64,000 bases of DNA from Candidatus Saccharimonadota bacterium. Lineage in GTDB: Bacteria > Patescibacteriota > Saccharimonadia > Saccharimonadales > Saccharimonadaceae. The DNA lies in assembly GCA_030537075.1 (NCBI GenBank), contig JAUNOS010000001.1:30079-94078 (forward strand), in the 5' to 3' direction. Positions 18,643 through 53,826 of the stretch are shown one piece after another. The stretch's first letter is position 1; each line of letters begins with the position of its first letter. The notes under the pieces are model-generated. The model did not search any database and had not been told where the DNA came from. It saw nothing but the letters and a program-made list of their open reading frames with translations. The position numbers and the translations under genes are program-made.

Positions 18643-18722
18643 ACCTTCCCTTTCGTTGTGTATGCTGTTTTCTTCTTTGGTCAGTATACCAACCCAAAAT
18701 CATTTGGCAAGTAGTTTTTTGC

Positions 18723-18757: not shown

Positions 18758-18776
18758 CCCGGGTGAATCGCGCTGA

Positions 18777-27887: not shown

Positions 27888-28097
27888 CGTATCAACGGGT
27901 ACGTTAAGTTAGGGAGTGCTGCCACTCGTTGGTTTTGGATAGAACCTCTGTAGTTGACACTGGTGAACGGTAATTTTCCATGATTACCACGCATTATACT
28001 ATTGATGCGGCACGGAAAGGAATATTTCACTCCGTCCGATGCGGCAAATATTCAGGGCAAAGACCGATGTAAGCAGCTCATGTGCTAAAATGTATCT

Positions 28098-40205: not shown

Positions 40206-40790
40206 CTACCAACTCATCTCCTGAAGCTCTTCGGGCAGGATGCGCTGCACGCTGACCGAGCCGGCCATGAGGCGATAATCAGCCAGCTGCTCTGGGGGCC
40301 AGTAGTCATTGATGTCGTCCTGCACCACCTGATGCTCGGCACAGTAGCGCTGTAGCTCCGGTATCAGCGGACCTTTTCGAGGAAACTCCAGCACACCCGC
40401 TTGATCGATGGTAAAAGCGATTGACACTCCCTCGGTCATCCTGCCCTCCTGGCGAATGTATAGTGCCGTCACCAAGCGCACCATCGGCGGCAAGTGAAGC
40501 GCTTTTTGATCATTCTTTTCGATGAGTGAGATGTTGTGGCGGGCTAATTCTTGCGCCATCTTCTCACGAAGTGCCGTCAATTCATCCTTGCTCCGCACCA
40601 TGTAGCAGTGACTACATTCACTCGTCAATGCCCGCATGTATTCCAAGACTGGCGCCATATTCACTGGCGGGTTATCCCGTGCCAAAATTTCAGCCGCAGC
40701 AAGGACCGCACGCGCCAAATCATCGTCTTGCGCCTGCTGCGCGGATTCGGCAAGGCGGAGGAGGGGGCGGATGTGGTGTATAGTTTCCAT
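40206..40790 (-). CDS. hypothetical protein
   Basis: 194-aa ORF in host GC with its stop adjacent to the DUF167 start. No recognisable motif. Confidence 0.5.
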   Translation of the reverse strand: METIHHIRPLLRLAESAQQAQDDDLARAVLAAAEILARDNPPVNMAPVLEYMRALTSECSHCYMVRSKDELTALREKMAQELARHNISLIEKNDQKALHLPPMVRLVTALYIRQEGRMTEGVSIAFTIDQAGVLEFPRKGPLIPELQRYCAEHQVVQDDINDYWPPEQLADYRLMAGSVSVQRILPEELQEMSW

Positions 40791-40844
40791 ATTACCACTT
40801 TAGCCCTAATAAGAGCGGTTGACAAGCCTAGGGATACCAAAGGG

Positions 40845-41297
40845 TTAGAGATGCCTCCTAATGACGCCCTGGCCATCCTTTATATTAACCTCAAAACCAT
40901 ATTTTTCATACCAATATCGCAATTTATCAAAATGATCTGCATCAGTATTGCTTAGATTTCCACAAATTGTACGGCAACCAATTTCTTTCGATAGACTAAT
41001 TAAAAACTCCAACATCCTAGAGCCATAACCCCTATTCTCAATTTTCGAAACAATATCCCCTAAGAACATCTCTCGCTTATGTTTGTGATAGACGATATCC
41101 ATACGCACTATCCATCCCTTGTGCCTTCTGTGATACATATCGACACGCGCCACGCCTTCATCTATCAGTTCTTCAATTCTTTGACCAAGGCTAATAAACC
41201 ACTCTCCATCCGGCGATATCAAGACCATATCGCTAATCCTTTCATTGTACGCAAGCTGACTCAAAAACTCTTTTTTCTTTGATCTAAACAATACCAT
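40845..41297 (-). CDS. GNAT family N-acetyltransferase
   Basis: Acetyl-CoA-binding motif region (...RGYGSRMLEFLI...) and length of about 150 aa. Confidence 0.7.
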   Translation of the reverse strand: MVLFRSKKKEFLSQLAYNERISDMVLISPDGEWFISLGQRIEELIDEGVARVDMYHRRHKGWIVRMDIVYHKHKREMFLGDIVSKIENRGYGSRMLEFLISLSKEIGCRTICGNLSNTDADHFDKLRYWYEKYGFEVNIKDGQGVIRRHL

Positions 41298-41312: not shown

Positions 41313-44150
41313 CTACACACCATCTATGAATGTAGTCAAAAACTTCCGCAGTCCATCACGCAGGCGGTCTACAATACTATCAAGCTCTAGCAGTCTTGGC
41401 TGCTCAATTAGCAGATCATTCAGCTCATGGTCGCGCGGCTTGTGTCCGCCAGAAAGATAGCGTGCCACAACCTTCTCAGCTTTCGCCTTGTCAATTCCAT
41501 TCTCGCGGCACAGCTTTTCAAACTCAGCCCGACGCTCGGCATCAAGAAATTCATAAAACTCTCGCTCAACATCACCCGACTCTTCTATGTTCGGCAGATT
41601 ATTCTGCAGAAACCGCTCAATAAGCTCCCGTTTGCTACGCAATTCGCTATCCGACTTCATCAAGCCGTCAATCGTCTGTCTAATCTCCTTCTGCCTCGAT
41701 TCACTTGCACCGACCATCTGTGCCACCAAGCGTAAAATAAAGCCCACATTTATTTCATCACGTTTCACCAGCTCTAGTTCGAAATCAAGATCCGCTAAAA
41801 TTGAAACTTTTTCCGCACTGCCTGGCCTGACAGAGTCGTAAATATCAAGATATTTACTCTGGTATTCCTCAATCTCTTGCTCTTCAATGTCAATGTCGTC
41901 GAAGTGAAATTCCGTGAATGAAATCAAGATATTTTTTAATTTTAGCAGCTCGCGAAATGCCTTCACAAAGCCCTCTTTTTGCTCTTCGCTCAGCAAATTA
42001 TCAACCGCATCTGGCGTATTAGCAGCTTGACGCAATACCGCCACTTGCCGATTAAACATTTCGACATACTCATGATACGGCTGCATAAACACCCGCTCCT
42101 GCGCCTCTTTATTTGCGAACAACCTCAGCGCTTCATTGGTGTTTTTCCGCAGGTTGCGAAACGCCACGATATTACCATGTGATTTCGTTTCGTTAAGAAT
42201 GCGGTTAGTGCGAGAATACGCCTGGATAAGTCCATGGTATTGTAAGTTCTTATCAACATATAGCGTATTGAGCGTTTTACTATCAAAACCGGTCAAGAAC
42301 ATGTTAACCACCAGCAGGATATCAATCTCACGCATCTTAACACGATCGGCAATATTACGGTAGTACTCATAAAAACTCGCCGAGTCCTTGGTGGTGTAAT
42401 TCGTGCCAAACATTTGGTTATAGTCGGCAATGTAACTCTCTAGCCTATCGCGCGAATGCAGATTCACCTTGCCATCATCTGGCATAACGTCCTCGTCCAA
42501 AATACTATCAGCGTCTTTATCCTCTTCATTCGCCGTATAACTAAAAATGGTGGCGATTTTCAGATTGTGCTCACCCGCCTCTTTTTTACGCTTGAACATT
42601 TCGTAATATTTTGCCAACATATCCGTGCTAGAAACAGCAAATATCGCGGTAAACTCACGGTTTCTCGTCTTGGCGTTGTGATTTTTGATAATGAAATCAA
42701 CATTTTGCTCCACCCAGTTTTCAGATTCAAACACCTCACGCACATTGATGCCCGGCACCTTTTCATCCGCAAGATTACGACCGTTGTATTTCACACCACT
42801 ATAGTATTCAACCGAAAATCGCAGCACATTTTCATCATTAATCGCGTCAACGATGGTGTATTCGTGTAACCTATCACCAAACAAATCCTTGGTAGTGCGC
42901 TTACCAAGTTCATTGCCACTGGCGTTTTCTGCAAAAATTGGCGTCCCAGTAAAGCCAAACATCTGGTAGTTTGTGAAGTATTCGGTGATTCGCTTGTGCG
43001 TTTCACCAAACTGACTACGGTGACACTCGTCAAAAATAAAGATAACTTTCTTATCACGCTGTTCATCCATCTTTAAAGCATGTCGTTCACGACTAATTGC
43101 CGTGTTTAGCTTTTGGATGGTTGTGACGATCAGTTTTGTATCTGGGTCATTAAACTGCTTTACCAAGTTTGCCGTATTGGTCGTTGTATCAACACTACCC
43201 TCTTTGAAGCTATTGAACTCACGGATTGTTTGATTATCCAAATCCTTACGGTCAACGACAAATACCACCTTGTCAACCTGCGGATTACTAATTAAAAGCT
43301 GGCTCGCCTTAAATGATGTCAGCGTTTTACCACTGCCCGTCGTATGCCAAATATAGCCGCCATGTATGCTATTCTCCACCCTATCGGCAATCGCCTCTAC
43401 TGCATAAAACTGGTACGGCCGCAGCACAAGTAGCGTTTTATTTGTCGTTAGTACGGTATATTTGGCAATCATTTTGGCGATATGGCAGCGGTCCAAAAAC
43501 ACTTGGGCGAACTGCTCTAGCCGGCTAATCTTTTGATTATCCTTGTCTGCCCAAAAGCTCGTAAATTTAAATGACGCCTTTTTACTATTGCCATACCCAA
43601 CTGTATTGGCATAATACTTAGTGTTCACTCCATTTGAAATTACAAAAATCTGCACAAAATCAAACAAGCCATAGCCTGCACTATATGAATGGCGACGGTA
43701 GCGATTGACTTGATTAAACGCCTCTTTCAGCTCAATCCCCGCCCGCTTGAGCTCGATCTGTACCAGCGGCAAGCCATTGATTAAAATCGTCACATCGTAG
43801 CGATTTAGATACTCGCCATCATTACTAATCTGGTTCGCCACCTGAAATTCGTTTTGACACCACTTTTCAATCTGTAAAAATTCGATCAATTGCGTCGTGC
43901 CGTCATCCCGCCTCAAGGCAAACTTATCCCTGAGGGCAAGGGCTTTATCAAACACCGTACCTTTTGAGAGGTGATGAAGAATCTGCTTAAACTCAGCGTC
44001 AGAAAAGGCAGTGTTATTATGCTTTTCTAGTTGCACCTTAAGGTTAGCAACCAAATCAGCCTCGTCCTTTATCACTACCCGCTCGTAACCCTGACCAGCC
44101 AGCTGCTGCATCAAGGATTCTTCAAGCTGTGATTCGGATTGGGTAGTCAT
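41313..44150 (-). CDS. hsdR: type I restriction enzyme R subunit
   Basis: 945 aa. N-terminal nuclease region, DEAD-like helicase motifs (Walker A TGSGKT, DECH), and C-terminal HsdR domain. Confidence 0.93.
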   Translation of the reverse strand: MTTQSESQLEESLMQQLAGQGYERVVIKDEADLVANLKVQLEKHNNTAFSDAEFKQILHHLSKGTVFDKALALRDKFALRRDDGTTQLIEFLQIEKWCQNEFQVANQISNDGEYLNRYDVTILINGLPLVQIELKRAGIELKEAFNQVNRYRRHSYSAGYGLFDFVQIFVISNGVNTKYYANTVGYGNSKKASFKFTSFWADKDNQKISRLEQFAQVFLDRCHIAKMIAKYTVLTTNKTLLVLRPYQFYAVEAIADRVENSIHGGYIWHTTGSGKTLTSFKASQLLISNPQVDKVVFVVDRKDLDNQTIREFNSFKEGSVDTTTNTANLVKQFNDPDTKLIVTTIQKLNTAISRERHALKMDEQRDKKVIFIFDECHRSQFGETHKRITEYFTNYQMFGFTGTPIFAENASGNELGKRTTKDLFGDRLHEYTIVDAINDENVLRFSVEYYSGVKYNGRNLADEKVPGINVREVFESENWVEQNVDFIIKNHNAKTRNREFTAIFAVSSTDMLAKYYEMFKRKKEAGEHNLKIATIFSYTANEEDKDADSILDEDVMPDDGKVNLHSRDRLESYIADYNQMFGTNYTTKDSASFYEYYRNIADRVKMREIDILLVVNMFLTGFDSKTLNTLYVDKNLQYHGLIQAYSRTNRILNETKSHGNIVAFRNLRKNTNEALRLFANKEAQERVFMQPYHEYVEMFNRQVAVLRQAANTPDAVDNLLSEEQKEGFVKAFRELLKLKNILISFTEFHFDDIDIEEQEIEEYQSKYLDIYDSVRPGSAEKVSILADLDFELELVKRDEINVGFILRLVAQMVGASESRQKEIRQTIDGLMKSDSELRSKRELIERFLQNNLPNIEESGDVEREFYEFLDAERRAEFEKLCRENGIDKAKAEKVVARYLSGGHKPRDHELNDLLIEQPRLLELDSIVDRLRDGLRKFLTTFIDGV

Positions 44151-44173
44151 GATTGCCTTTCTTTATTCAGTTT

Positions 44174-44210
44174 TGTGAAAATAGTAGATTTTTTGGTGTT
44201 TTTTACACGC
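44174..44210. repeat. ~37-bp element, copy A (direct repeat of 46474-46510)
   Basis: TGTGAAAATAGTAGATTTTTTGGTGTTTTTTACACGC. About 30/37 identical to copy B. Lies in the hsdR upstream region. Confidence 0.7.
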
Positions 44211-44236
44211 CAATAGCCTGTTAAAATTATATAAAA

Positions 44237-44674
44237 TCATGTGAAATTTTCCCAAATTTCATCAAATTCACTCTCAAGAATCGACTTAATATACTGGGTT
44301 TCGCCACAATTTTTCGGCAAATCATTCTTGCTATAAATTAGTAATATTTTCATCTGTCGTTTTGCGGCAGAATAGTACACCACACATCTATTGCCCGCAT
44401 CTTTGGCTGCAACCTTTGTCTGAGCAACCCTAAAGTCATACTTAAAGATCCATTGACCATCAGCATGCCACAACTCATCCACCTGCTGGGTGTGCTGCAA
44501 AGTATTTTCGGCAAACGAAATACGCGCAAGGTCTTGAAAGATAGACTCTTCGGTTACCTCCCACTGCTTGCCTCTGTATTTTTTCTGAAAACCTTTTAGA
44601 AAATGCCTACGAGCGTAATCTGTATACTCAACGCCTATCAAAACATTGCTAGTTGGTATACGGTTTGTAAACAT
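44237..44674 (-). CDS. putative toxin of a Panacea-associated toxin-antitoxin pair (145 aa, unclassified)
   Basis: Overlaps the 3' end of the upstream HTH-DUF4065 gene by 26 nt in another frame, with an internal AGGAAG RBS. No recognisable toxin fold by eye. Confidence 0.5.
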   Translation of the reverse strand: MFTNRIPTSNVLIGVEYTDYARRHFLKGFQKKYRGKQWEVTEESIFQDLARISFAENTLQHTQQVDELWHADGQWIFKYDFRVAQTKVAAKDAGNRCVVYYSAAKRQMKILLIYSKNDLPKNCGETQYIKSILESEFDEIWENFT

Positions 44675-45341
44675 GTTGCGGATCTTCCTGGGTGATTAGA
44701 CTATATGGAATATATTCGCCATCGGCGCAAGCCTGCCAAGGTCGCTGCGCGTGGGTGAAATTGACTATTTCCTCAGTTCTAGCACTCTCCCAGGTTTTAC
44801 AGATTTCATCAACGCGCTTTTTCTCATCAGCCGACAACAGATCTTCTTGTGGTTTTGTTGATGCACTTCGGCTAATCATAAACGCACCGCGATCAAGCAC
44901 CTCTATATTGATTTTTCCACCGTCATAAAGGGACTCTGTTAGCTCAAAGAAAGTGTCTGCAACCGGTCCGTACTGCCTGCGCACATACCTCATGCCGGTC
45001 ATAGGCTCCAGTGTGTCATAATACCAGCTAAAGTCAATTAGGTACAGGATCTTGGCTAGCTTAGTTTTAGGAACCCCCCCTTTAAAATGACTAAGAACAT
45101 ACAAATATAACTGTTCAAATTTCTCGTTATTCCGCGGCGTATCAATTAGCTCAGAAATAGAAACATCATAAATTTTAGCCAGTCTTTCTAGTAGCTCAAT
45201 ATTTGGCTTGGATTTTCCAGACTCAATATTTATATAGGTCGCTCTACTAATGCCCAGTTGCCCAGCAACGGCATCTTGCGTCAAATCTTTACTGCTCCTT
45301 AGATTCTCAAGGTTTTGTGCGACTGTGCTTGTGATACTCAT
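44649..45341 (-). CDS. HTH-XRE plus Panacea (DUF4065) domain antitoxin-like protein
   Basis: N-terminal XRE helix-turn-helix (LTQDAVAGQLGISRATYINIESGK). C-terminal region KLAKILYLIDFSWYY...YGPV is characteristic of DUF4065/Panacea. Confidence 0.75.
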   Translation of the reverse strand: MSITSTVAQNLENLRSSKDLTQDAVAGQLGISRATYINIESGKSKPNIELLERLAKIYDVSISELIDTPRNNEKFEQLYLYVLSHFKGGVPKTKLAKILYLIDFSWYYDTLEPMTGMRYVRRQYGPVADTFFELTESLYDGGKINIEVLDRGAFMISRSASTKPQEDLLSADEKKRVDEICKTWESARTEEIVNFTHAQRPWQACADGEYIPYSLITQEDPQHVYKPYTN

Positions 45342-45507
45342 TTTTCGCCCTTTCTTTGATATAAATATAGCATTTTAATTCATAAATGTCAAATATTTAT
45401 ACGTCTTTGTACTATTTATTGTATCAATGACCAAGCTTAAGCGCAATAAGTTTCTGACATTCTTGTAACTTGATGTAAATAATACTCATCATTTCCTTGA
45501 AAAATAC

Positions 45508-45536
45508 TTGACACCACCCTTGCGCTGTCATACAAT
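45508..45536 (+). promoter_or_regulatory. sigma70 promoter (TTGACA, 17-nt spacer, TACAAT) for the 257-aa gene
   Basis: Near-perfect consensus hexamers with 17-nt spacing. Gives an approximately 125-nt leader containing a GC hairpin (CGCCC-CGAAA-GGGCG, 45551-45565). Confidence 0.6.
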
Positions 45537-45668
45537 ATAAGCGAGAAAGACGCCCCGAAAGGGCGCCCTTCGTTAAAATATATAGTACCCACTAAAATTA
45601 TTTTAACTTTCTCATACTAATTGAAATTTAAACGAAGGTCAAGCGGAGGGACAGGCTGGAGTAACACG

Positions 45669-46394
45669 ATGGCAGAAAATAGGTCATCAGTCGTATCTGT
45701 GGGCGACTTAAATATCTCACAGAAGCATACCACAATAATTGTCGAACCAACCGCGTTCGCTGATGGCTTCGACAAAGACGCTTACGACACGGCGGAACTA
45801 TCCACTCTATTGTGGGTCGAAAATCCCGAAGAGAGGTGGGTCGAAATACCGCTACCGTTCGCAACGGAAAATTTCAGCGCGTCTGTTTCGGTAATATCTG
45901 CCGGACCCGACGAGTATAGGGATCGCATCTTTAGCGTTTCCCAGATTCGAAACGGTTTCGAAAAATATATCCCCTACTTGAGGCATCTGGGAACTTCAGA
46001 AGAGTTGCTCGGTAACAAGAAAGCACTGAGGAACATCCTAAAAGGTATGCGCGTAGCTATGGTCAAACTTCCGGCTGGCAACTTGGTTGTAAAAATCCAG
46101 TGTAGCCAGATTATCAAGAAGGACCCCGATGATATGAATGGCAAAACCTTCAGCTTCAAAGCCTTTGCGCCGCTTCCGAGCTTTTTCGTGAAAAACGCTG
46201 CGCCACTCAAACTGCACGTTATCTTCAAGGACGTAGACACAATTTCAAGAGAAATTGAAACACCAACTCTGTCCTATCCGTTCGGAGATATCCCTACGGT
46301 AGACAGCCAAGAGACAACGTTTGGCGGCGATAAATTATACTACTGGAAATGGCAAAATGACCCGGTGGTAGAGTTTAAGTACCGATACTTATAA
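45669..46394 (+). CDS. hypothetical protein (241 aa from the ATG at 45669), cassette cargo of unknown function
   Basis: GGAG RBS 8 nt upstream of the ATG at 45669. The ORF-track TTG start at 45621 is less likely. No recognisable domain. Strong dedicated promoter and terminator. Confidence 0.55.
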   Translation: MAENRSSVVSVGDLNISQKHTTIIVEPTAFADGFDKDAYDTAELSTLLWVENPEERWVEIPLPFATENFSASVSVISAGPDEYRDRIFSVSQIRNGFEKYIPYLRHLGTSEELLGNKKALRNILKGMRVAMVKLPAGNLVVKIQCSQIIKKDPDDMNGKTFSFKAFAPLPSFFVKNAAPLKLHVIFKDVDTISREIETPTLSYPFGDIPTVDSQETTFGGDKLYYWKWQNDPVVEFKYRYL

Positions 46395-46410
46395 TTGGCA
46401 ATATGGCGAT

Positions 46411-46441
46411 AAGGGGCAGATTGACTGCCCCTTATTTTTTC
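46411..46441 (+). terminator. rho-independent terminator
   Basis: Stem AAGGGGCAG/CTGCCCCTT with a 5-nt loop, then T8. Confidence 0.8.
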
Positions 46442-46473
46442 ACGAATGCGCGATCAGGTGGTATTGTAGTTGG

Positions 46474-46510
46474 TGTGAAAATTGATAGATTTTTGGTGTT
46501 TTTCACACCT
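46474..46510. repeat. ~37-bp element, copy B (direct repeat of 44174-44210), itself a hairpin
   Basis: TGTGAAAATTGATAGATTTTTGGTGTTTTTCACACCT. Its ends GGTGTGAAAA/TTTTCACACC form a perfect 10-bp inverted repeat. Confidence 0.7.
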
Positions 46511-46844
46511 CTTTACTTTTCTGTATTAAGCCCCGAATTCTGCTTATGTCGTCTCGCGATTGACTTATTTCCATATTCAGCTGATTGACCACATCATTAG
46601 CAATGTCATGAAATAGATCAGTTCCTTCATCTTCAAGTACGAAACTCACTTGATTATCGCTATTTATCGCAAAATCAAAAACTTTATCAAATAGGACTTT
46701 GATGTCATCTGTAGAATTATCCGACAAACTCACTTTAGAGCCTATCCCCTTAAACTCTAAGCATATGTTGTCGCTACTAGAAGCAGACCTATCTCCACTA
46801 ATCACTACATTTATTATATTTTTTCTATCTATCTCCATAAACAT
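46503..46844 (-). CDS. small acidic hypothetical protein (113 aa), translationally coupled to the PHP-ATPase
   Basis: Start ATG at 46844 overlaps the upstream stop (46825) by 20 nt. Asp/Glu/Ser-rich. Confidence 0.5.
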   Translation of the reverse strand: MFMEIDRKNIINVVISGDRSASSSDNICLEFKGIGSKVSLSDNSTDDIKVLFDKVFDFAINSDNQVSFVLEDEGTDLFHDIANDVVNQLNMEISQSRDDISRIRGLIQKSKEV

Positions 46845-48936
46845 TCTTTCTACTATTAAACATCTCTTCTCCTCCTTCTAAATGAGTAATTGCAACCTTG
46901 AACCAATCTTCCATTTTTCCTTTGCTTGCGCCTACTAATTCACCGGAATACATATTGCCACAATAGTATGTCTCATCGTCCGGATAATTGCAATATACAA
47001 CTTGGCTCGGTAGTGTATTGACTGCAATATTTGCATCATGCGTGGAAATCACTATTGTTTTTCCCAGCTCTCTTATATTCTTTATTTGCGGTAACAGGTG
47101 ATTAACTATATATTTATGACCAAGACCCCTCTCTATCTCGTCAAATAGGTAGCAATCGTATTCGGGATTCTCTAGCGCGGCACTAACAGATAGAATAGCC
47201 CTTTCTCCCTCCGAAGGCTTATAGTTATCATCACCTTTTATCCTGATTGATTCTCGTTTTTTAATTATATCTGTAATAAATTTATTAACATCAACCCCCT
47301 GTTCTGCTACTTTAAAATATTCATTAATGTTAGAAAATTTTGTTACATTAAAGTTCTCAATTTTCTTTACGACACCCCTGTTAAAAACGATTCGATTCTT
47401 ATCAAACACAGAATCTTTCCTATGTTTATCTCTCTGGCTAAGGCAAACGACCTCAACTCCTAGGGTCACATCACCCTTACCAGGCAAGTATCCTATTGGA
47501 AAGGCACTCTCAGACTGTATTTGTTTCATGTTTTCTACTAACCTACTGTTTGCTTCAAGCCTCTCAAGTCTGCTTGCAAATAGTTTTGAGAGTCCAATAT
47601 TTGTAGGCTTAGGTTTGCTGCCAGTACATTTTTTCAGCGAGTCTTTAATAGATACGATAAATCGCTCTGTGAATTTGTCAGAGTATTGTTTTGCTAAAGT
47701 ATCTTTAGCTTCAGACATAATATCCCGCTTCAACAGAGACAATTCTTTCATCAAACTATCTTTGTCTCTCGACGTAATCTTGGTAGTTTTATTTAATGCG
47801 ACTACTTTATCTACTTTATCCATATTTTCTTCGCACGCATCCATTATGGCCTGCATTTTATGTGAATTCAGGTCGGTAAAGCTACAATCTGCCTTTAAAA
47901 CTCTCTTCGCGCGCGCATTTGTTATTTTGCTCTGGTTAGCAGATTTATATTCTTTAATGAAATCGCGGACAGGAGACTCTCGATAATTCAAAATTTTTTG
48001 GATATCTTCTTTGATCTCCCGCAAGATATCTTCATTTATTTTTTCTCTCTCAGCGTAGCTATTGATTATTTGATCATAATATCTTTGATAATCCGAGCCT
48101 TTATGCAGAAAACATTTTTTACCTGATGCTGCAAACGCTGGCATAATATAATCTTCCATTAATATAGTTTTGCCAGATCCTTTTTCACCAAATACTATAT
48201 TTATATCGTCGTATATACTCACTATTCCCGCATCGGTTTTTACGTTAAGGCTACTTGAGCCATCAAGAGCATTTTTTACAAACATTTTTGGATCTTTTGC
48301 TAACTCGTAGAATTTACCAAAACTATCTATAGAGAACTTTACTTCTGGCGTCATAGACGCGCTATAGTTGTCCCAGTCTTTAACATCGCTACCAATCAAA
48401 CATAGTCTATTGATTCTATGATTAACTATACCCATAGAGAGAGTATTTGCCGTTTCCATAATTAACACATAGCCGGCAAGGCCTGATTCAAGATCACTCC
48501 TTTCATTCGGCCTAAATCCATTGGCCTTATCATAGAAATGAGGTATTATAATAATTTTATCTTTAGGTAATTGATTTGTGCGATTAATAAATTCTTTGTA
48601 TGAAAATGAAAATGTATTATAGTTTCGATTCGGGTCGCCATCATACGCACTACTGAACTCTTCAGTAATTCCCGGATCGCATACCACAATAACTTGTCTA
48701 TTTTGACCATCTTCTAATTTGATATCCAGTTCTATGCCTGGTATTACAACAATGCCTTCACCCAATTCAACTACCTTATTGTACTCATTCACATCGAACT
48801 TGTTGTGATTGGTGATCGAACAAAAGCCGACTCCGCAGTTTCTCATTTTTTCGATGTATGCTTCTGGGGTGATTTCACGTTTCTTTCCATCACCGGTCTT
48901 TAGGCACTGTGTATGTGTGTGCAAATCAATTCTCAT
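46825..48936 (-). CDS. PHP-domain phosphoesterase fused to an OLD/RecF-like ABC ATPase (Ppl-like antiphage architecture)
   Basis: N-terminus MRIDLHTHT (PHP HxH motif) with further His/Asp/Glu metal ligands. Central Walker A GEKGSGKT. C-terminal Walker B/D-loop YLFDEIERG and H-loop ISTHD. ATGA overlap with the hsdS stop. Confidence 0.72.
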   Translation of the reverse strand: MRIDLHTHTQCLKTGDGKKREITPEAYIEKMRNCGVGFCSITNHNKFDVNEYNKVVELGEGIVVIPGIELDIKLEDGQNRQVIVVCDPGITEEFSSAYDGDPNRNYNTFSFSYKEFINRTNQLPKDKIIIIPHFYDKANGFRPNERSDLESGLAGYVLIMETANTLSMGIVNHRINRLCLIGSDVKDWDNYSASMTPEVKFSIDSFGKFYELAKDPKMFVKNALDGSSSLNVKTDAGIVSIYDDINIVFGEKGSGKTILMEDYIMPAFAASGKKCFLHKGSDYQRYYDQIINSYAEREKINEDILREIKEDIQKILNYRESPVRDFIKEYKSANQSKITNARAKRVLKADCSFTDLNSHKMQAIMDACEENMDKVDKVVALNKTTKITSRDKDSLMKELSLLKRDIMSEAKDTLAKQYSDKFTERFIVSIKDSLKKCTGSKPKPTNIGLSKLFASRLERLEANSRLVENMKQIQSESAFPIGYLPGKGDVTLGVEVVCLSQRDKHRKDSVFDKNRIVFNRGVVKKIENFNVTKFSNINEYFKVAEQGVDVNKFITDIIKKRESIRIKGDDNYKPSEGERAILSVSAALENPEYDCYLFDEIERGLGHKYIVNHLLPQIKNIRELGKTIVISTHDANIAVNTLPSQVVYCNYPDDETYYCGNMYSGELVGASKGKMEDWFKVAITHLEGGEEMFNSRKNVYGDR

Positions 48937-50042
48937 ACAAACATCCTTTGCAATAGTGCTTTTTTGAACTTTTTTAGCTCCTCTAGTTTTTGAGTTTCGA
49001 GGGTGATTTTTTCGTCGATTTGGGAGAGGAAAGCGGCGATTTTCTGTTGCTCTTCAATTAGAGGCATTCCCAGTGTATAGATATTGCATATCACAGATGG
49101 GTGTGCCTTCGTGGTATAATCAAATACCTGTCTACCTTGCAGATATTGAAGTTGGCTCGCTAAAAACTTTGTATCTACTAGATTTTCATCAATAACTTTA
49201 ATAAACCCAGAAACATTAGTTATGGAGAATCTATGAGTTGGTCTATAGAAGAAATCACCCCCACCATCAATAGACCAAGTTATCATCTCGCTGTCAAACA
49301 TATAATTTCCGTACCTACCAAAAAGACCATTATTTTTCACAGAGGAAGAGTAGATGGGATACTCTCCGGGGTTGGCATCTACATCAGTGGCCGATATCAC
49401 CATGCCACGACCCATATTGATAAATCCTTTATCAACGATATCGCCTAGCTTTGTCGTCTCCCACTCTGGGAAGTCACTACCATCATCGCGCTTGAAGCGG
49501 AGAGTGCGGGTGAAGATTTTTTGGGTGAGGCCGCGTTTGTAGGCTTCGAGTTTTTCGACTTTGCGGCTAGTGAGCTCAATCCGCTCATCCACCGCCGTCA
49601 AAAACTCAGCGATTTTTTCTTGCTCCTGCTTGCTCGGGATGTTAACCTTAACTTTTTCTATCGTTGACTTAGATAAACTTGGTACACCTGTAGCTTCATT
49701 GTATCGTTGCCAATTGATATTGTTAAAAATTTCAAAGACAAACCTGGGACAAGAATCAACATAATCACGAGTGTAAAATAGTGTATCTACCGTCCAAAAT
49801 TTACCAGATAGAAATTGCGGTTTATCAATCGTGCCTTTGCGACCAATTGCAACACTTTCGCCTTCATATAGGTAATCGTCAACACTGAGCATATATCCGC
49901 CAGTGCCATACACTGGAATATCGCCTTCACCTAGATGCTTATAGTCACGACCGTTGCCAATAGTTAAGATGTCGCCGATCTTTTTCGTAGACCAGTCGTC
50001 GGTGAATTCAGGAAATCGCAAACTAGGCTTCATTACGTACAT
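48933..50042 (-). CDS. hsdS: type I restriction-modification specificity subunit
   Basis: 369 aa with two target-recognition-domain halves separated by conserved helical spacers. Positioned with hsdM and hsdR. Confidence 0.88.
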   Translation of the reverse strand: MYVMKPSLRFPEFTDDWSTKKIGDILTIGNGRDYKHLGEGDIPVYGTGGYMLSVDDYLYEGESVAIGRKGTIDKPQFLSGKFWTVDTLFYTRDYVDSCPRFVFEIFNNINWQRYNEATGVPSLSKSTIEKVKVNIPSKQEQEKIAEFLTAVDERIELTSRKVEKLEAYKRGLTQKIFTRTLRFKRDDGSDFPEWETTKLGDIVDKGFINMGRGMVISATDVDANPGEYPIYSSSVKNNGLFGRYGNYMFDSEMITWSIDGGGDFFYRPTHRFSITNVSGFIKVIDENLVDTKFLASQLQYLQGRQVFDYTTKAHPSVICNIYTLGMPLIEEQQKIAAFLSQIDEKITLETQKLEELKKFKKALLQRMFV

Positions 50043-50820
50043 CTCTATCTAAATACTTATTTTCGTTATTAAGCCACCGTTGCCTAAGGCGCTTACTTGC
50101 AGGCGTATCTCCCATCTGCCATTCATTTGCGTAAGGAACATACCCCAATGCGACCAAAAAATTAATGGCATCCGCATCATACTTAATACCCAACCTCAGC
50201 TTGACTTCACTTAGTCTCCAATACGGTTTTACATCAAGAAACTCACGAAGGTCACTAGGATAATTAATATTGCTTGCAGCCCACCGCTCAAACACTTTCT
50301 GTAAACGCTTATTTTTTATTTGATATATTTTTTTAGCTATTTTACGTAAGCCAAATCTCGCAACTGACATGATTCCAATCGTATCAGCAACAAATCCCCA
50401 CCAGTCAAAAAGTTCCACCCCAGACGCGCCCAAGCCTGAAGGTATGCTAATTGCGACACTTCTACCGTCACCAAATATAATACCAGCCCCTAAGGCTTCG
50501 TCGATTTCGCGTAATGTCCAGTCCTCATAAAAGCCCTCTAGATCACCTGTTTTTTTGACTGTATCATCGCCGTTTATTTTGTATGGTATTCCCCATGCGC
50601 TGTCGGTTTTTTTCTCCTGATCCGACCCTTTATCTATAGCTATACCGATTGGGGTTTGATTTGTAATTACCCCATCTTTCTCAAAGACTTCATTATATGT
50701 AGATATAATTACTGAACGCAGCGACTCATCAAGGTTAACTTCTTTTCTAATGACGATAGGTTCGTCGAGCATGTCTCCATACTGAGTCGTCCTAAATATT
50801 AGGTCAATTTTTTCCATCAT
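50023..50820 (-). CDS. hypothetical protein (265 aa) inserted between hsdM and hsdS
   Basis: ATGA overlap with the hsdM stop and 20-nt overlap with the hsdS start. Lower GC. No recognisable domain. Confidence 0.6.
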   Translation of the reverse strand: MMEKIDLIFRTTQYGDMLDEPIVIRKEVNLDESLRSVIISTYNEVFEKDGVITNQTPIGIAIDKGSDQEKKTDSAWGIPYKINGDDTVKKTGDLEGFYEDWTLREIDEALGAGIIFGDGRSVAISIPSGLGASGVELFDWWGFVADTIGIMSVARFGLRKIAKKIYQIKNKRLQKVFERWAASNINYPSDLREFLDVKPYWRLSEVKLRLGIKYDADAINFLVALGYVPYANEWQMGDTPASKRLRQRWLNNENKYLDRDVRNEA

Positions 50821-52367
50821 GGCGCCTCAATCCCCAATTCTTTGCAAAACTCAGCGATTTTCGCGTCAACTTCGGCGGATTTTTGGTCGATTTGTTTGAT
50901 TTCGGCGGTGACTTCGGCAAGGTCAATTTCCGGCTCAGGTTCAAATGTATCGACATAGCGCGGAATGTTAAGATTAAAGTCATTTTCGGCGATTTCGGCT
51001 AGGCTAGCGTTGTGACTGTATTTGTTGATTTCGGCGCGGGTGGCGTAGGTTTCGATAATTTTGTCGATATTTTTGGCGCTAAGGTAATTTTGATTCTTGC
51101 CTTTGGTGAATTCGCGGCTGGCGTCGATGAAGAGTACGCTTTCTTCTGGCGTGCGGCATTTTTTGAAGACTAAAATACAGGCAGGGATACTTGTTCCGTA
51201 AAATAGGTTTGCTGGCAAGCCAATAATCGCGTCAAGGTAATTACGCTGCTCAATAATAAAGCGACGAATCGCCCCTTCGGCTGCACCACGAAACAGTACG
51301 CCGTGCGGCATAATAACTGCCAGCGTGCCGCTATCATCCAGTTGGTGGATCATGTGGGTAATGAAGGCGTAGTCTGCCTTACTTTTTGGTGCTAGACGAC
51401 CATACGGTGAAAATCGATCATCACTCAGGTGAATTGGGTCAGCCGACCACTTGGCACCAAACGGCGGATTGGCCACAATCGCTTCAAACCGCTTATCATA
51501 ATGCTGCGGGCGCTCGAGTGTATCATCCTGCTTAATATCAAAATCTGCATAGTGCACATCGTGCAAAATCATATTCATGCGAGCCAAGTTGTAGGTAGTA
51601 TTATTTAGCTCTTGGCCATAAATCTTATCAATTTCCCCAATATGCTTTTTAACACGAAGTAGCAAAGATCCAGAACCGCAAGTTGGATCGTATGCATTGC
51701 GCAGACGATCCCGACCTTGCGTCACAATGCGAGCCAAGATTTCAGAAACATCCTGCGGCGTATAGAATTCGCCCGCCTTTTTGCCTGCACCAGCCGCAAA
51801 TTTGCCGATGAGGTATTCGTACGCATCACCCAGGATATCAATCTGCGAATCTCCAAGCTGAAAATCAATCCTACTAAGGTGACTTAGTACTTTGGCGATG
51901 AGCTTATTACGCTCGGCGACTGTTTTACCAAGTTTAATATTATGAAGGTCGAGATCTGAAAAGAGATTACCGAAGTCTTCTTCGCTATCGCTTCCCATGG
52001 TGGACTTTTCAATACCGTGCAAAATCCGCTCAAGGTCTTCAGTGAGTGTACTATTATTTGCCGCACCTTCGGCGATAACCGTAAATAAATCTTCGGGGGC
52101 AAGAAAGCAGCCCAGCTTGTCAATTGACTGCTTCTTTATCGCCTTTAGATACGCTTCTTTTTGCGGGTGGTCTACAAGTGCTTCGTAGGTCGCGTGCTCC
52201 GGCTCAAGCAAATGATTGGCGTAATCGGTAATCTTTTCTGAAAGATATTTATAAAAAATAAGACCAAGCATATAGTCACGGTAGTCATCCGCGTTCATCT
52301 TGCCATGAAATTCATCGGCTACCTTCCATAGTTGCGCATGCAAATTGCGGCGCTGGTCCTCGGTCAT
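50817..52367 (-). CDS. hsdM: type I restriction-modification DNA methyltransferase subunit (N6-adenine)
   Basis: N-terminal HsdM domain, SAM motif I (DPTCGSGSLL) and catalytic NPPF (ANPPFGAKW). GGGGAGAGG RBS. Confidence 0.95.
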   Translation of the reverse strand: MTEDQRRNLHAQLWKVADEFHGKMNADDYRDYMLGLIFYKYLSEKITDYANHLLEPEHATYEALVDHPQKEAYLKAIKKQSIDKLGCFLAPEDLFTVIAEGAANNSTLTEDLERILHGIEKSTMGSDSEEDFGNLFSDLDLHNIKLGKTVAERNKLIAKVLSHLSRIDFQLGDSQIDILGDAYEYLIGKFAAGAGKKAGEFYTPQDVSEILARIVTQGRDRLRNAYDPTCGSGSLLLRVKKHIGEIDKIYGQELNNTTYNLARMNMILHDVHYADFDIKQDDTLERPQHYDKRFEAIVANPPFGAKWSADPIHLSDDRFSPYGRLAPKSKADYAFITHMIHQLDDSGTLAVIMPHGVLFRGAAEGAIRRFIIEQRNYLDAIIGLPANLFYGTSIPACILVFKKCRTPEESVLFIDASREFTKGKNQNYLSAKNIDKIIETYATRAEINKYSHNASLAEIAENDFNLNIPRYVDTFEPEPEIDLAEVTAEIKQIDQKSAEVDAKIAEFCKELGIEAP

Positions 52368-52413
52368 CCTCTCCCCTATTTAGCACTCATCTTACAGTGT
52401 TATCTAAGGGGTA

Positions 52414-53061
52414 TTATAGCATATTTGCGATACTTCGGTAATCTTGTTTGGTGATAATAAGATGGTCGATGAATGTAATGTCGAGCAATTCAGCAGCCTC
52501 TTTTAGTCGCCTTGTCACGACCACATCCGCCTCACTCGGCCGCAAACTCCCACTCGGATGATTGTGCGCTACGATGATACTGGCAGCCCGGTCGGCGATG
52601 GCGGGGGCGAAGACTTCGCGCGGATGCACCAGGCTGGCGGTGAGGGTGCCGATGGAAATAACATGTTTGTTGATCAGCCGATTTGCCCCATCCAGCGTCA
52701 AGCAGACGAAATATTCTTGCTGTTTGTCGCGAATATCTACCAATTGCTCAGCCGCCTTTTCGGGCGAGTCAATCACCGGTCGATCAGGCTCCAGCAAATG
52801 TTGTCGCGCCAGTTCAAAACTCGCCAAAATTACCGGAATCTTGGCCGCACCTAGACCCCCGACCTGCCGCAGATCATCATACGATACGTCCGCACCCTTC
52901 ACCTGCAGCACCTTTAGCACCCGCCGGGCGATCACACTTACATCCGCCTGCTTATTGCCACTACCGATAATCGCCATCAGTAGCTCCAGGTCAGACAACC
53001 TGGCCGCGCCATATAGCGCCAACTTCTCACGCGGGCGATCCATAGGGCGACGGTCGTGCAT
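52414..53061 (-). CDS. radC: RadC-family JAB/MPN domain protein
   Basis: JAMM motif HNHPSGSLRPSEADVVVT with a helix-hairpin-helix-like N-terminus. Confidence 0.88.
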   Translation of the reverse strand: MHDRRPMDRPREKLALYGAARLSDLELLMAIIGSGNKQADVSVIARRVLKVLQVKGADVSYDDLRQVGGLGAAKIPVILASFELARQHLLEPDRPVIDSPEKAAEQLVDIRDKQQEYFVCLTLDGANRLINKHVISIGTLTASLVHPREVFAPAIADRAASIIVAHNHPSGSLRPSEADVVVTRRLKEAAELLDITFIDHLIITKQDYRSIANML

Positions 53062-53097
53062 TTTCAGACTCTTAACAGCACAAGCTCCTAGGCAACC

Positions 53098-53826
53098 CTA
53101 TTGTTCATCATCTTTCGCCACATGCTTGCCACTCCGCACTTTTCGCACATTATAGTTCATGAGATGCCTTCCAAAATACCTATAGGCGATGACCTGCAAA
53201 AACGACAATTCCTGGCGGTGCTCACGTAGTAGTGCGTCAGGATTGTCATATAGACCAAAATCCTGATTAATGCCTTTGCTTTGGATATAGGTATTGTTAC
53301 GGTTAAACTCTACAACGGGACTTTGGAAATTATCTACCGCAACACCATAACCACAAAAAGTACCCGTACACGAGCTATACGCCCGTTGCAGCTCAGAAAG
53401 ATACTGCTTATCTAAAATGAAACCTTCTAGCTCATACCACACACCATCAAGATATACTTCGACCCAGCTATGAAGAATGTTTCGCGGGGCATTTTTATAC
53501 ACAATTCCCGTCATTGCACCCTTTTGCAGCTTTTTGTCAATTGTAAACCCATGTGTCCTACACGGTATGCCGCAGGCACGCAATAATGCCATAAGAAGCG
53601 TCCCCTTGGTATTGCATTGCCCATAGCCATCGCGAAGCACTCGAGACGCAGAGACGCTATCATCGCTATTGTAGCCAAAAAGTATCTCATCACGGACATA
53701 GTCATAGATTGCCCTAATTCGCTCAAAGTCAGGTAAATCCTTCCATTTACGCCTTTTGATGAGTTGCTGAATACGGACATTGTCATAGTCCAGCATTGCT
53801 GTTTTTTCAAGATATTGTGTATTCAT
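53098..53826 (-). CDS. transglutaminase-like cysteine protease superfamily protein
   Basis: Core GYGQCNTKGTLLMALLRACGIPCR with the catalytic Cys, plus downstream His/Asp. Confidence 0.72.
   Translation of the reverse strand: MNTQYLEKTAMLDYDNVRIQQLIKRRKWKDLPDFERIRAIYDYVRDEILFGYNSDDSVSASRVLRDGYGQCNTKGTLLMALLRACGIPCRTHGFTIDKKLQKGAMTGIVYKNAPRNILHSWVEVYLDGVWYELEGFILDKQYLSELQRAYSSCTGTFCGYGVAVDNFQSPVVEFNRNNTYIQSKGINQDFGLYDNPDALLREHRQELSFLQVIAYRYFGRHLMNYNVRKVRSGKHVAKDDEQ

What the first reader, a model, noticed from the sequence alone, without database searches (positions are those of the whole stretch)
41313..52367. Type I R-M system split and invaded by a composite defence island, with nested genes translationally coupled to hsdM and hsdS
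The R-M genes hsdM (50817-52367), hsdS (48933-50042) and hsdR (41313-44150) are present, but three kinds of foreign gene are interleaved. First, a 265-aa unknown is wedged between hsdM and hsdS with an ATGA overlap at the hsdM stop and a 20-nt overlap at the hsdS start. Second, immediately after hsdS there is a 703-aa PHP-phosphoesterase/ABC-ATPase fusion (ATGA overlap) and then a 113-aa acidic protein (20-nt overlap). Third, a 2.3-kb cassette separates this operon from hsdR; it carries an HTH-Panacea antitoxin, a putative toxin and an independently transcribed 257-aa gene. The whole segment is lower in GC than the surrounding genome. Tight coupling means the unknown proteins are made stoichiometrically with the methylase and specificity subunits. 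This resembles the E. coli prr locus, where the PrrC anticodon nuclease is embedded in and silenced by a type I R-M complex. Here, though, there are several different and uncharacterised effector candidates, so it may be an undescribed R-M-guarded abortive-infection assembly.
Basis: partly seen in the sequence, partly recalled or inferred. Interest (0 to 1): 0.85.

Follow-up and report, generated by a model that had tools for sequence, protein, structure and literature searches.

The report
Restriction operon carrying swappable defence cargo
An intact type I restriction-modification operon in an oral Saccharibacteria genome carries three slots of unrelated, strain-variable cargo genes (likely anti-phage modules); this kind of embedding is already described, but several of the cargo families are uncharacterised.

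Summary
All ORFs, overlaps and the GC dip are real. The window comes from a Candidatus Saccharibacteria MAG. HsdM, HsdS and HsdR are complete: the system is interleaved with other genes, not broken.

There are three cargo slots.
- Slot 1 (hsdM/hsdS) holds a 265-aa protein. Its family was found mainly in Saccharibacteria and other CPR genomes, it has a beta-grasp-like N-domain and it matches no known family.
- Slot 2 (after hsdS) holds a PHP phosphoesterase fused to an SMC/AriA-like ABC ATPase, plus a small acidic partner. This is an autonomous two-gene module. An overlapping partner ORF follows in all 82 loci tested. Only 5 of 45 lineages have hsd genes nearby. It is a weak full-length relative of PADLOC candidate PDC-M49A and has the domain composition of Ppl.
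- Slot 3 is a 2.3-kb cassette bracketed by a 35-nt direct repeat. It carries a conserved HTH-Panacea/145-aa pair and a 241-aa orphan gene.

Strains 77-94% identical in the shared DNA carry different cargo in slots 1 and 2, with breakpoints exactly at gene junctions. A more distant locus lacks the cassette.

The PrrC-like "R-M-guarded assembly" reading is therefore not supported. The locus is an embedding hotspot of the kind described by Payne et al. (2024). Defence function is inferred, not shown.

The parts
52414..53061 (-). radC-like JAB gene (215 aa), the left end of the block shared between strains
   Evidence: Pfam RadC 1.4e-41. blastn homology to strains L105 and L110 ends at 53066. radC is also upstream of hsdM in L039.
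50817..52367 (-). hsdM, type I methyltransferase subunit (516 aa), intact
   Evidence: TIGR00497 at 468.5 bits against cutoff 242.75; N6_Mtase 4e-109; HsdM_N. Annotated as MDO5343379.1.
50023..50820 (-). Slot 1 cargo: 265-aa protein of a family found mainly in Saccharibacteria/CPR. N-terminal beta-grasp (ubiquitin-like) domain and helical C-terminal domain; no predicted membrane helix.
48933..50042 (-). hsdS, specificity subunit (369 aa) with two target-recognition domains
   Evidence: Methylase_S 1.5e-41 in two stretches. Only the conserved central and C-terminal stretches align to other strains (49461-49649 and 48929-49052), so the recognition domains differ.
46825..48936 (-). Slot 2 cargo, gene A: N-terminal PHP phosphoesterase fused to an SMC/Rad50/AriA-like ABC ATPase with a coiled-coil insert (703 aa)
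   Evidence: Weak PHP and AAA_21 hits. PDC-M49A 1.3e-10. TrlF_fam_ATP 1.3e-16, N-terminus only. PDB profile search best hit AriA, 7.6e-7, residues 232-641. AF2 pLDDT 84. Foldseek hits Pol III alpha PHP, metal phosphoesterase 3e0f and SMC heads. Invariant residues in 26 sequences: H6, H8, D16, H44, E69, H133, D184; G250-T257 (Walker A); S575-E578; D599 and E600; H633.
46503..46844 (-). Slot 2 cargo, gene B: small acidic partner (113 aa, pI 4.4), always paired with gene A
   Evidence: An overlapping downstream ORF is present in all 82 loci that could be tested. All 83 partners form one family by iterated HMM, with pI 4.05-5.10. tblastn gives 28-43% identity across phyla.
46474..46508 (.). 35-nt palindromic element, copy B. 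It contains the stop codon of the 113-aa gene and marks the right edge of slot 2 and the left edge of the cassette.
   Evidence: Repeat family D2; unique in the window. Homology to strain L105 stops exactly at 46508. Conserved at both positions in L105. Folds as a 10-bp stem, -11.7 kcal/mol, z -4.6.
46410..46436 (.). GC-rich hairpin between the convergent 113-aa and 241-aa genes; probably a terminator for both
   Evidence: 11-12-bp stem, -22.9 and -20.9 kcal/mol on the two strands, with a U-run on the + strand.
45669..46394 (+).
   Evidence: NCBI start at 45669, MDO5343374.1; 12 members in its 90% cluster. No match in Pfam, NCBIfam, PADLOC or PHROGs, nor in phage records, viral contigs or PDB. 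Promoter-like site on the + strand at 45508-45536, 11 of 12 matches.
44649..45341 (-). Slot 3 cassette: HTH-Panacea (PanA-type) antitoxin/regulator, 230 aa
   Evidence: SocA_Panacea 3.5e-15 (57.4 bits against cutoff 25.7) and HTH_3 8.7e-14. Promoter-like site TTGACA-17-TATATT at 45392-45364. 63% identical orthologues paired with the 145-aa family in L015-L019.
44237..44674 (-). Slot 3 cassette: 145-aa putative PanT toxin; new family with a sub-threshold resemblance to HigB-2/RelE
   Evidence: 127 homologues at mostly 49-60% identity, most close to 145 aa. Always downstream of HTH-PanA with about a 23-nt overlap in the 5 loci looked at. The five best PDB profile hits are all HigB-2-type toxin chains (four named HigB-2), but at E 0.23.
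44174..44208 (.). 35-nt element, copy A, just upstream of hsdR; the right edge of the cassette
   Evidence: Repeat D2, start-to-start spacing 2300 nt. Conserved in L105. In L026 the small partner gene ends 7 nt before the hsdR ATG, with no cassette.
41313..44150 (-). hsdR, restriction/translocase subunit (945 aa), intact, with an EcoR124-like C-terminal domain
   Evidence: TIGR00348 at 498.7 bits against cutoff 284.55; HSDR_N, SWI2_SNF2, T1R_D3-like; EcoR124_C 1.8e-62. Homology to L110 ends at 41314, the hsdR stop.

Best explanation
This is a complete EcoR124-like type I restriction-modification locus (radC-hsdM-...-hsdS-...-hsdR) in a human-oral Candidatus Saccharibacteria genome. It acts as a scaffold for exchangeable accessory cargo.

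Three slots are filled in this strain.
- Slot 1 (hsdM/hsdS junction): a 265-aa protein with a beta-grasp-like N-domain, from a family found mainly in Saccharibacteria/CPR; function unknown.
- Slot 2 (after hsdS): an autonomous two-gene module. Gene A fuses a PHP metal-phosphoesterase to an SMC/AriA-like ABC ATPase with a coiled coil. Gene B is an obligate small acidic partner.
- Slot 3 (between slot 2 and hsdR): a 2.3-kb cassette bounded by a duplicated 35-nt palindromic element. It carries a PanA-type HTH antitoxin with a 145-aa putative toxin, and a divergently transcribed 241-aa orphan.

Shown:
- The anatomy.
- The autonomy and strict pairing of the PHP-ATPase module.
- The conservation of the PanA/145-aa pair.
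- Cargo replacement at exact gene junctions between related strains.

Inferred:
- Slots 1 and 2 are co-transcribed with hsdMS, from a promoter near the end of radC, and end at the hairpin at 46410-46436.
- The PHP-ATPase pair works as an ATP-driven nuclease defence in the manner of OLD, Gabija, PARIS or Ppl. The ABC/coiled-coil part would be the sensor or clamp, the PHP domain the phosphodiesterase effector, and the acidic partner a regulator or inhibitor.
- PanA/145-aa is a type II TA/Abi-like module, autoregulated through the HTH.
- The modules act independently of the Hsd proteins. Embedding gives co-inheritance and co-expression rather than physical silencing.
For: Intact R-M genes.

Organism: the 703-aa protein is 100% identical to a protein of a Candidatus Saccharibacteria MAG on a 287,798-bp contig.

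Autonomy of the PHP-ATPase pair:
- The pair occurs outside type I R-M in Saccharibacteria (L002, beside a type II R-M and prophage-like genes), Streptococcus suis (L004, beside Mrr, with DpnII R-M genes about 3-6 kb upstream), Mammaliicoccus (L007, mobile element) and Lentibacillus (L008, flanked by IS elements).
- An overlapping downstream ORF is present in all 82 testable loci.
- All 83 partners form one acidic family.
- Only 5 of 45 lineages (85% clusters) have hsd genes in their flanks. Among the clusters with at least 3 kb on both sides, 1 of 20 does.

Architecture of the 703-aa protein. Six other family members tested match PDC-M49A, three of them along nearly the whole protein, but weakly (E 1e-11 to 1e-29). 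The window protein matches at 1.3e-10, best over its N-terminus.

Cargo swapping:
- Strain L105 (77-81% nt identity in the backbone) has radC-hsdM-[NYN]-hsdS-[395 aa + 151 aa]-241-PanA-145-hsdR. Homology breaks at 50817, at the hsdS ends and at 46508.
- Strain L110 (92-94% nt identity) keeps slots 2 and 3 but has an unrelated 209-aa gene in slot 1.
- The L022 group has hsdM-RhuM-[PHP pair]-hsdS-hsdR beside the same p194/DUF167 neighbours.
- L026 has hsdS-[PHP pair]-hsdR with a 7-nt spacer and no cassette.

Cassette edges: 35-nt repeat.

PanA/145-aa pair: conserved in L015-L019. PanAT biology, including HTH-PanA and antitoxin-first order, is described in PMC8832971.

Embedding of defence genes in type I R-M is documented in 10.1101/2024.01.29.577857. 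Slot-1 alternatives in relatives hit defence models: RhuM = PDC-S05 at 1.8e-146; NYN = NYN and HEC-09, weakly.
Against: - No experiment shows defence by any cargo gene.
- The 265-aa family also sits next to rpoB-rpoC (L014). The L110 slot-1 allele is a Cys-rich protein with an N-terminal hydrophobic stretch (by eye) and no defence flavour, so not all cargo need be defensive.
- No recombinase is found in or next to the slots, so the exchange mechanism is unknown.
- Only 7 of the 9 canonical PHP metal ligands could be identified as invariant. PHP activity is therefore plausible, not certain.
- The PHP pair recurs in type I R-M loci of Saccharibacteria in two different positions. This leaves some room for a functional link.
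- The HigB-2 similarity of the 145-aa protein is below significance (E 0.23).
Confidence: 0.72

Rival explanations
1. One reading: a PrrC-like guarded system. The embedded proteins (the 265-aa protein and the PHP-ATPase pair) would bind the HsdM/HsdS complex, be kept silent by it, and fire when a phage anti-restriction factor disables the R-M enzyme.
For: - Overlapping reading frames with hsdM and hsdS.
- The PHP pair is embedded in type I R-M in five lineages and at two different positions.
- Its ATPase is most similar to AriA of PARIS. From my own knowledge, PARIS senses the anti-restriction DNA mimic Ocr.
- A relative of the 265-aa protein lies downstream of hsdM in L011 and next to a type III R-M in L010.
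Against: - 40 of 45 PHP-ATPase lineages have no hsd gene in the flanks, unlike PrrC, which is almost exclusively embedded.
- Strains with the same HsdM and HsdR carry unrelated slot-1 and slot-2 genes.
- No PrrC or RloC model hit.
- The module has its own invariant partner, which is a more likely regulator than HsdMS.
Confidence: 0.1
2. The PHP-ATPase pair is not immunity but a DNA-end processing or repair machine, analogous to SbcCD or Rad50-Mre11 (an SMC-like ATPase plus a phosphoesterase nuclease). It would have landed in the operon by chance.
For: Foldseek hits to SMC and Rad50 heads and to a phosphoesterase nuclease fold. The architecture resembles Rad50/Mre11 (my own knowledge).
Against: - Patchy distribution, with 40-50% identity shared between Saccharibacteria and Firmicutes.
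- Location on mobile elements and beside R-M, Mrr or IS genes.
- Low GC relative to the host genome.
- Present or absent among close strains.
- Related to a candidate (PDC-M49) that was itself defined by embedding in defence systems.
Confidence: 0.07
3. The cargo, especially PanA/145-aa and the orphans, consists of selfish addiction or hitch-hiking genes that stabilise or simply ride a recombination hotspot, without protecting against phage.
For: TA modules can act as addiction modules (my own knowledge). The L110 slot-1 allele and the L014 context show no defence signature. No family-level defence hit for the 265-, 241-, 145- or 113-aa proteins.
Against: [quoted passage not shown] PanA/145-aa neighbours in other genomes are R-M genes.
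Confidence: 0.11

Closest known systems
Defence genes embedded in type I R-M, BREX, DISARM and Hma operons ('guilt-by-embedding', Payne et al. 2024, bioRxiv 10.1101/2024.01.29.577857)
   Same: Extra genes are nested between hsdM, hsdS and hsdR. The cargo includes ABC-ATPase/nuclease modules, RhuM (PDC-S05) and NYN (HEC-09-like) in sister strains. The same cargo is more often found non-embedded elsewhere.
   Different: - The host is a CPR bacterium.
- Three slots are filled at once.
- Strain-level allele swapping with breakpoints at exact gene junctions, and a 35-nt repeat at the cassette edges, are documented here.
- PADLOC recognises none of the window's cargo proteins with a strong match; the only hits are weak and sub-family level.
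PADLOC candidate PDC-M49 (two-gene, untested)
   Same: The A protein is about 680 aa. Six other PHP-ATPase family members tested match its HMMs, three of them along nearly the whole protein (E 1e-11 to 1e-29), and the window protein matches at 1.3e-10, best over its N-terminus. Both are two-gene cassettes.
   Different: Scores are far below what a family member would give. No PADLOC model, and so no PDC-M49 B-protein model, hits the small acidic partner. This looks like a sister clade, not the same family.
Ppl (Gao et al. 2020), a single-gene PHP + ATPase anti-phage system
   Same: The same pair of domains in one polypeptide: a PHP phosphoesterase and an ABC-type ATPase (PMC11482910; Payne et al. 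list Ppl among the ABC-ATPase defences).
   Different: Ppl is a single-gene system, whereas this module always has a second gene. No PplA model appears among the PADLOC hits of the window protein or of six other family members.
PARIS (AriA/AriB), and OLD/Gabija-type ABC-ATPase + nuclease systems
   Same: The ATPase with a long helical insert is most similar in sequence to AriA (8ux9, E 7.6e-7). The general logic is an ABC ATPase coupled to a nuclease.
   Different: The nuclease here is a PHP domain fused in cis, not a Toprim protein. The partner is a roughly 110-aa acidic protein with no Toprim.
E. coli prr locus (PrrC anticodon nuclease within EcoprrI)
   Same: An effector gene nested in a type I R-M operon.
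   Different: No PrrC or RloC homology. The cargo is autonomous and interchangeable. There is no evidence of masking by Hsd proteins.
PanAT toxin-antitoxin systems (Kurata et al. 2022, PMC8832971)
   Same: An HTH-Panacea antitoxin is encoded first and overlaps a small downstream partner. The pair is conserved across genomes.
   Different: The 145-aa partner belongs to no named toxin family. It has only a sub-threshold resemblance to HigB-2.

Membership tests
Type I restriction-modification system | HsdM, HsdS and HsdR are all present and full length | tested here: met
   TIGR00497 at 468.5 bits (cutoff 242.75). TIGR00348 at 498.7 bits (cutoff 284.55). Methylase_S in two stretches. All HsdR domains present.
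Type I R-M, EcoR124-like (type IC) subgroup | HsdR C-terminal domain of the EcoR124 type | tested here: met
   PF12008 EcoR124_C 1.8e-62. Classical criteria such as complementation and cross-hybridisation cannot be tested here.
PrrC/RloC-type R-M-masked anticodon nuclease | Homology to PrrC or RloC (ABC ATPase plus a C-terminal anticodon nuclease domain) | tested here: not met
   No PrrC or RloC model among the PADLOC hits of any cargo protein, even at E up to 10.
PrrC/RloC-type R-M-masked anticodon nuclease | Near-exclusive embedding in type I R-M loci | tested here: not met
   Only 5 of 45 PHP-ATPase lineages have hsd genes nearby. Payne et al. describe PrrC as almost exclusively embedded.
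PrrC/RloC-type R-M-masked anticodon nuclease | Physical masking by the Hsd complex and release by a phage anti-restriction factor | not testable with these tools
   Needs co-purification and phage assays.
Ppl (Gao 2020) | PHP domain and ATPase in one protein | tested here: met
Ppl (Gao 2020) | Match to a PplA profile | tested here: not met
   No PplA model appears among the PADLOC hits of the window protein or of six other family members. I did not confirm independently that this PADLOC copy holds a PplA model.
Ppl (Gao 2020) | Single-gene system | tested here: not met
   An obligate overlapping partner is present in all 82 testable loci.
PDC-M49 (PADLOC candidate) | A protein matches a PDC-M49A model | tested here: inconclusive
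   Window protein: E 1.3e-10, best stretch in the N-terminus. Six other family members tested match at E 1e-11 to 1e-29, three of them along nearly the whole protein. This indicates superfamily-level similarity.
PDC-M49 (PADLOC candidate) | B protein matches a PDC-M49B model | tested here: not met
   None of the five small partners tested hits a PDC-M49 model; four have no PADLOC hit and one only a weak Cas8b hit.
PARIS | AriA ATPase together with an AriB Toprim effector | tested here: not met
   AriA-like similarity only. No Toprim protein; the partner is a 113-aa acidic protein.
PanAT toxin-antitoxin | Panacea (DUF4065) domain above the Pfam threshold | tested here: met
   57.4 bits against cutoff 25.7.
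PanAT toxin-antitoxin | Conserved bicistronic pairing with the same partner in other genomes | tested here: met
   In L015-L019, PanA is 63% identical and the 145-aa partner 49-51% identical, with about a 23-nt overlap.
PanAT toxin-antitoxin | Partner is toxic and is neutralised by PanA | not testable with these tools
   Needs expression assays.
RelE/HigB-fold toxins | Significant sequence or structure match of the 145-aa protein | tested here: inconclusive
   The five best PDB hits are HigB-2-type toxin chains, but at E 0.23. No Pfam hit.

The most novel reading that the evidence does not exclude
In oral Saccharibacteria the type I R-M operon could be a dedicated cargo-exchange platform for immune genes. 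Fixed junctions (the hsdM stop, the hsdS start and stop, and a 35-nt palindromic element) would serve as recombination points, so that unrelated modules are swapped in and out without an integrase, in an integron-like way.

In addition, the AriA-like PHP-ATPase/acidic-partner module could act as a back-up that senses phage anti-restriction proteins when the surrounding R-M enzyme is disabled.
Probability: 0.15. Interest if true: 0.8.

Novelty: new variant of a known kind. Interest (0 to 1): 0.5.

Why it matters
CPR bacteria such as Saccharibacteria have tiny genomes and rarely carry CRISPR-Cas (PMC6509639, abstract). How they resist phage is therefore poorly known. This locus shows a compact way of stacking and exchanging accessory, probably immune, modules inside one R-M operon.

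It also yields concrete candidates for testing:
- A PHP-nuclease/ABC-ATPase plus acidic-partner module with at least 680 homologues (the search scored only 8,000 candidates). Named homologues come from Streptococcus, Staphylococcus, Listeria and Enterococcus.
- A 265-aa protein family found mainly in Saccharibacteria and other CPR genomes.
- A new Panacea-associated putative toxin family.

The natural allele series among strains amounts to a ready-made experiment for asking what each slot contributes.

Tried and rejected
- megablast of the 11-kb region against all complete E. coli genomes: no match.
- Literature on 'TrlF' and 'PDC-M49': nothing relevant. A search for PHP/ABC-ATPase defence papers returned nothing.
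- The 265-aa protein in the word-indexed 5.8-billion protein search found only its own cluster. The exhaustive HMMER search was needed to find relatives.
- Alignment A2 was too diverse for locus retrieval; the closer alignment A3 worked.
- Membrane-protein idea for the 265-aa protein: rejected, maximum hydropathy 1.13. Foldseek against PDB gave nothing significant; the best hit was EccD-type ubiquitin-like domains at E 2.8e-3.
- The 241/257-aa protein: no hit in phage records, viral contigs, PDB or any HMM library.
- The afdb50 fold library was not available.
- An RNA role for the 35-nt element: only copy B folds stably. Rfam finds only four tRNAs in the window. No tRNA gene lies within about 13 kb of the island and no integrase-type family was found among the genes scanned in and beside it.
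- Slot-1 alleles (209 aa versus 265 aa versus NYN) are not homologous.

Full report
**1. Observation**

All nine ORFs are at the stated coordinates. The overlaps were read directly from the sequence:
- hsdM/265-aa: ATGA, 4 nt.
- 265-aa/hsdS: 20 nt (11 nt from the second ATG).
- hsdS/703-aa: ATGA, 4 nt.
- 703-aa/113-aa: 20 nt (14 nt from the second ATG).
- PanA/145-aa: 26 nt.

GC falls to 36-46% over 41-54 kb, against about 53-59% in the flanks. HsdM, HsdS and HsdR are full length and well above the curated cut-offs. HsdR has an EcoR124-type C-terminal domain. The system is therefore interleaved with other genes, not inactivated.

The exact proteins belong to a Candidatus Saccharibacteria MAG (287,798-bp contig; MDO5343371-79). 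NCBI starts the '257-aa' gene at the ATG at 45669, which gives 241 aa.

**2. The 703-aa/113-aa pair is an autonomous two-gene module**

- The 703-aa protein has at least 680 homologues; the search scored only the 8,000 best candidates. Those listed are 40-51% identical, and the named ones come from Saccharibacteria and from Firmicutes such as Streptococcus, Staphylococcus, Listeria and Enterococcus.
- In Saccharibacteria L002, S. suis L004, Mammaliicoccus L007, Lentibacillus L008 and L020, it is followed by an overlapping 100-130-aa gene and is not inside a type I R-M system.
- A metagenome scan added 80 loci. In all 82 loci where it could be tested, a same-strand overlapping ORF follows.
- All 83 partners fall into one family by iterated HMM, and all are acidic (pI 4.05-5.10).
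- Of 45 lineages (85% clusters), only five have hsd genes in the flanks. Of the 20 clusters with at least 3 kb on both sides, one does.

**3. What the 703-aa protein is**

- A profile search of the PDB gives AriA of PARIS as the best hit (E 7.6e-7, residues 232-641).
- The AF2 model (pLDDT 84) matches the PHP domains of Pol III alpha, a metal phosphoesterase (3e0f), and SMC/Rad50-type heads.
- Invariant residues in 26 sequences:
  - PHP-type ligands H6, H8, D16, H44, E69, H133 and D184;
  - Walker A, G250-T257;
  - an ABC-signature-like S575/G577/E578;
  - Walker B, D599/E600;
  - H633.
- PADLOC's PDC-M49A models match six other family members that were tested, three of them along nearly the whole protein, but weakly (E 1e-11 to 1e-29). 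The window protein matches at 1.3e-10, best over its N-terminus. None of the five small partners tested hits a PDC-M49 model, and no PplA model is hit.
- PDC-M49 is an untested two-gene candidate that was itself defined by embedding in defence systems.
- Ppl is a validated single-gene PHP + ATPase defence (PMC11482910).

I conclude that the module is a sister clade of PDC-M49, with Ppl-like domain content and an obligate partner. The mechanism is inferred by analogy with OLD, Gabija, PARIS and Ppl: an ABC/coiled-coil sensor driving a PHP phosphodiesterase, with the acidic protein as regulator.

**4. The 265-aa protein**

- The word-indexed search found only its own cluster. Exhaustive HMMER found 103 distant relatives, most of them 240-320 aa. 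Forty of them have no meaningful Pfam hit.
- In reference genomes it was found only in MAGs: three Saccharibacteria, one Parcubacteria and one unclassified bacterium.
- Contexts of these relatives:
  - type III R-M, two small genes, then the relative, then ParA (L010);
  - hsdM-NYN-Fic, then the relative (L011);
  - NYN, a 337-aa gene, then the relative (L012);
  - rpoB-rpoC, then the relative (L014).
- The AF2 model is confident (pLDDT 87).
- Its function remains unknown.

**5. The 2.3-kb cassette**

- The HTH-Panacea protein and the 145-aa protein recur as an overlapping pair in L015-L019 (63% and about 50% identity), next to other R-M genes.
- This fits the published PanAT pattern of an HTH-PanA antitoxin encoded first (PMC8832971).
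- The 145-aa family (127 homologues) has only a sub-threshold HigB-2 resemblance (E 0.23).
- The 241-aa gene is divergently transcribed from a pair of strong promoter-like sites and has no detectable relatives outside its 90% cluster.
- The cassette is bracketed by a 35-nt imperfect direct repeat (44174-44208 and 46474-46508) that is unique in the window.
- In L026 (HsdR 60% identical), the small partner gene ends 7 nt before hsdR, so there is no cassette.

**6. Strain comparison, the decisive evidence**

| Locus | Identity to window | Arrangement |
|---|---|---|
| L105-L109 (at least one from a human oral metagenome) | 77-81% nt in the backbone | radC-hsdM-[NYN 192 aa]-hsdS-[395 aa + 151 aa]-241-PanA-145-hsdR |
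| L110/L111 | 92-94% nt | Same left flank as the window. Slots 2 and 3 are kept. Slot 1 holds an unrelated 209-aa gene, the HsdS recognition domains differ, and there is no transglutaminase-like gene. DUF8371 and Cas9 lie beyond hsdR. |
| L022 group | HsdM 41%, HsdR 42% aa | hsdM-RhuM-[PHP pair]-hsdS-hsdR, beside the same p194/DUF167 neighbours |

- Against L105, blastn homology to the window is confined to 41373-46508, two short conserved hsdS stretches, and 50817-53066.
- The breaks therefore fall at the hsdM stop, at the hsdS ends and at the end of repeat copy B.
- The 35-nt element is conserved at both positions in L105.
- In the L022 group, L039 has radC upstream of hsdM.
- Slot-1 alternatives hit defence models: RhuM = PDC-S05 at 1.8e-146; NYN = NYN and HEC-09, weakly.

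Thus the hsd operon is a scaffold whose slots hold interchangeable cargo.

**7. Interpretation**

The single 'R-M-guarded Abi assembly' analogous to prr is not supported, for these reasons:
- the cargo modules are autonomous;
- they are exchanged without any change in HsdM or HsdR;
- they lack PrrC or RloC homology;
- they are mostly found outside R-M loci, whereas PrrC is almost exclusively embedded.

Embedding of defence genes in type I R-M is a published phenomenon. What is new here:
- the CPR host;
- three slots filled at once;
- junction-precise allele swapping, and the 35-nt repeat;
- several unrecognised families.

No recombinase was found, and only copy B of the 35-nt element folds stably as RNA. 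The exchange mechanism is therefore open.

**8. Verdict**

This is a real and well-defined locus of moderate interest. It is a new variant of a known kind. Defence function is inferred from context and architecture, not demonstrated.

Noticed in passing
window 53892-56833 (- strand); L110 1-3825: UbiA prenyltransferase, two small lycopene-cyclase-like genes (98 and 104 aa) and a phytoene-desaturase-like amine oxidase. In strain L110 the block continues with phytoene synthase and polyprenyl synthase. The gene order resembles a C50-carotenoid cluster as known from Actinobacteria (my own knowledge), which is unexpected in a reduced Saccharibacteria genome and may reflect transfer from the host.
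   Followed up: no
window 53098-53826: A transglutaminase-like 242-aa gene (GC about 46%) is absent from the 92-94% identical strain L110, where the UbiA gene directly abuts radC. It is therefore a strain-specific insertion next to the island.
   Followed up: partly
L110 15593-20336; window 40206-41297; L105 4097-5512: The region beyond hsdR differs between strains. The window has GNAT-p194-DUF167. L110 has a DUF8371 protein followed by Cas9, that is, type II CRISPR-Cas in a Saccharibacteria genome. L105 has a Der-like GTPase.
   Followed up: no
L105 10844-12487: The alternative slot-2 cargo is an unknown 395-aa plus 151-aa gene pair with no Pfam hit on record and no meaningful PADLOC match. 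It is another untested candidate module.
   Followed up: partly
L110 6093-6722: The alternative slot-1 cargo is a 209-aa Cys-rich protein with an N-terminal hydrophobic stretch (by eye). It is unrelated to the 265-aa and NYN alleles and does not look like a defence gene.
   Followed up: partly
L022 3936-6352: Two unknown genes (220 and 585 aa), with no Pfam hit on record and no PADLOC match, lie directly upstream of hsdM and overlap it, in the RhuM-type locus.
   Followed up: no
window 44174-44208 and 46474-46508: The 35-nt element has inverted ends (TGTGAAAA ... TTTTCACA). Copy B contains the stop codon of the 113-aa gene, and copy A has GTG TAA at the same relative position. This suggests that the original gene end was duplicated when the cassette entered.
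   Followed up: partly
window 4096-8470: Three tRNA-Met (CAT) genes lie within 4.4 kb.
   Followed up: no
window 18001-19000 and 28001-29000: Two further local GC dips (0.433 and 0.488) elsewhere in the window were not examined.
   Followed up: no
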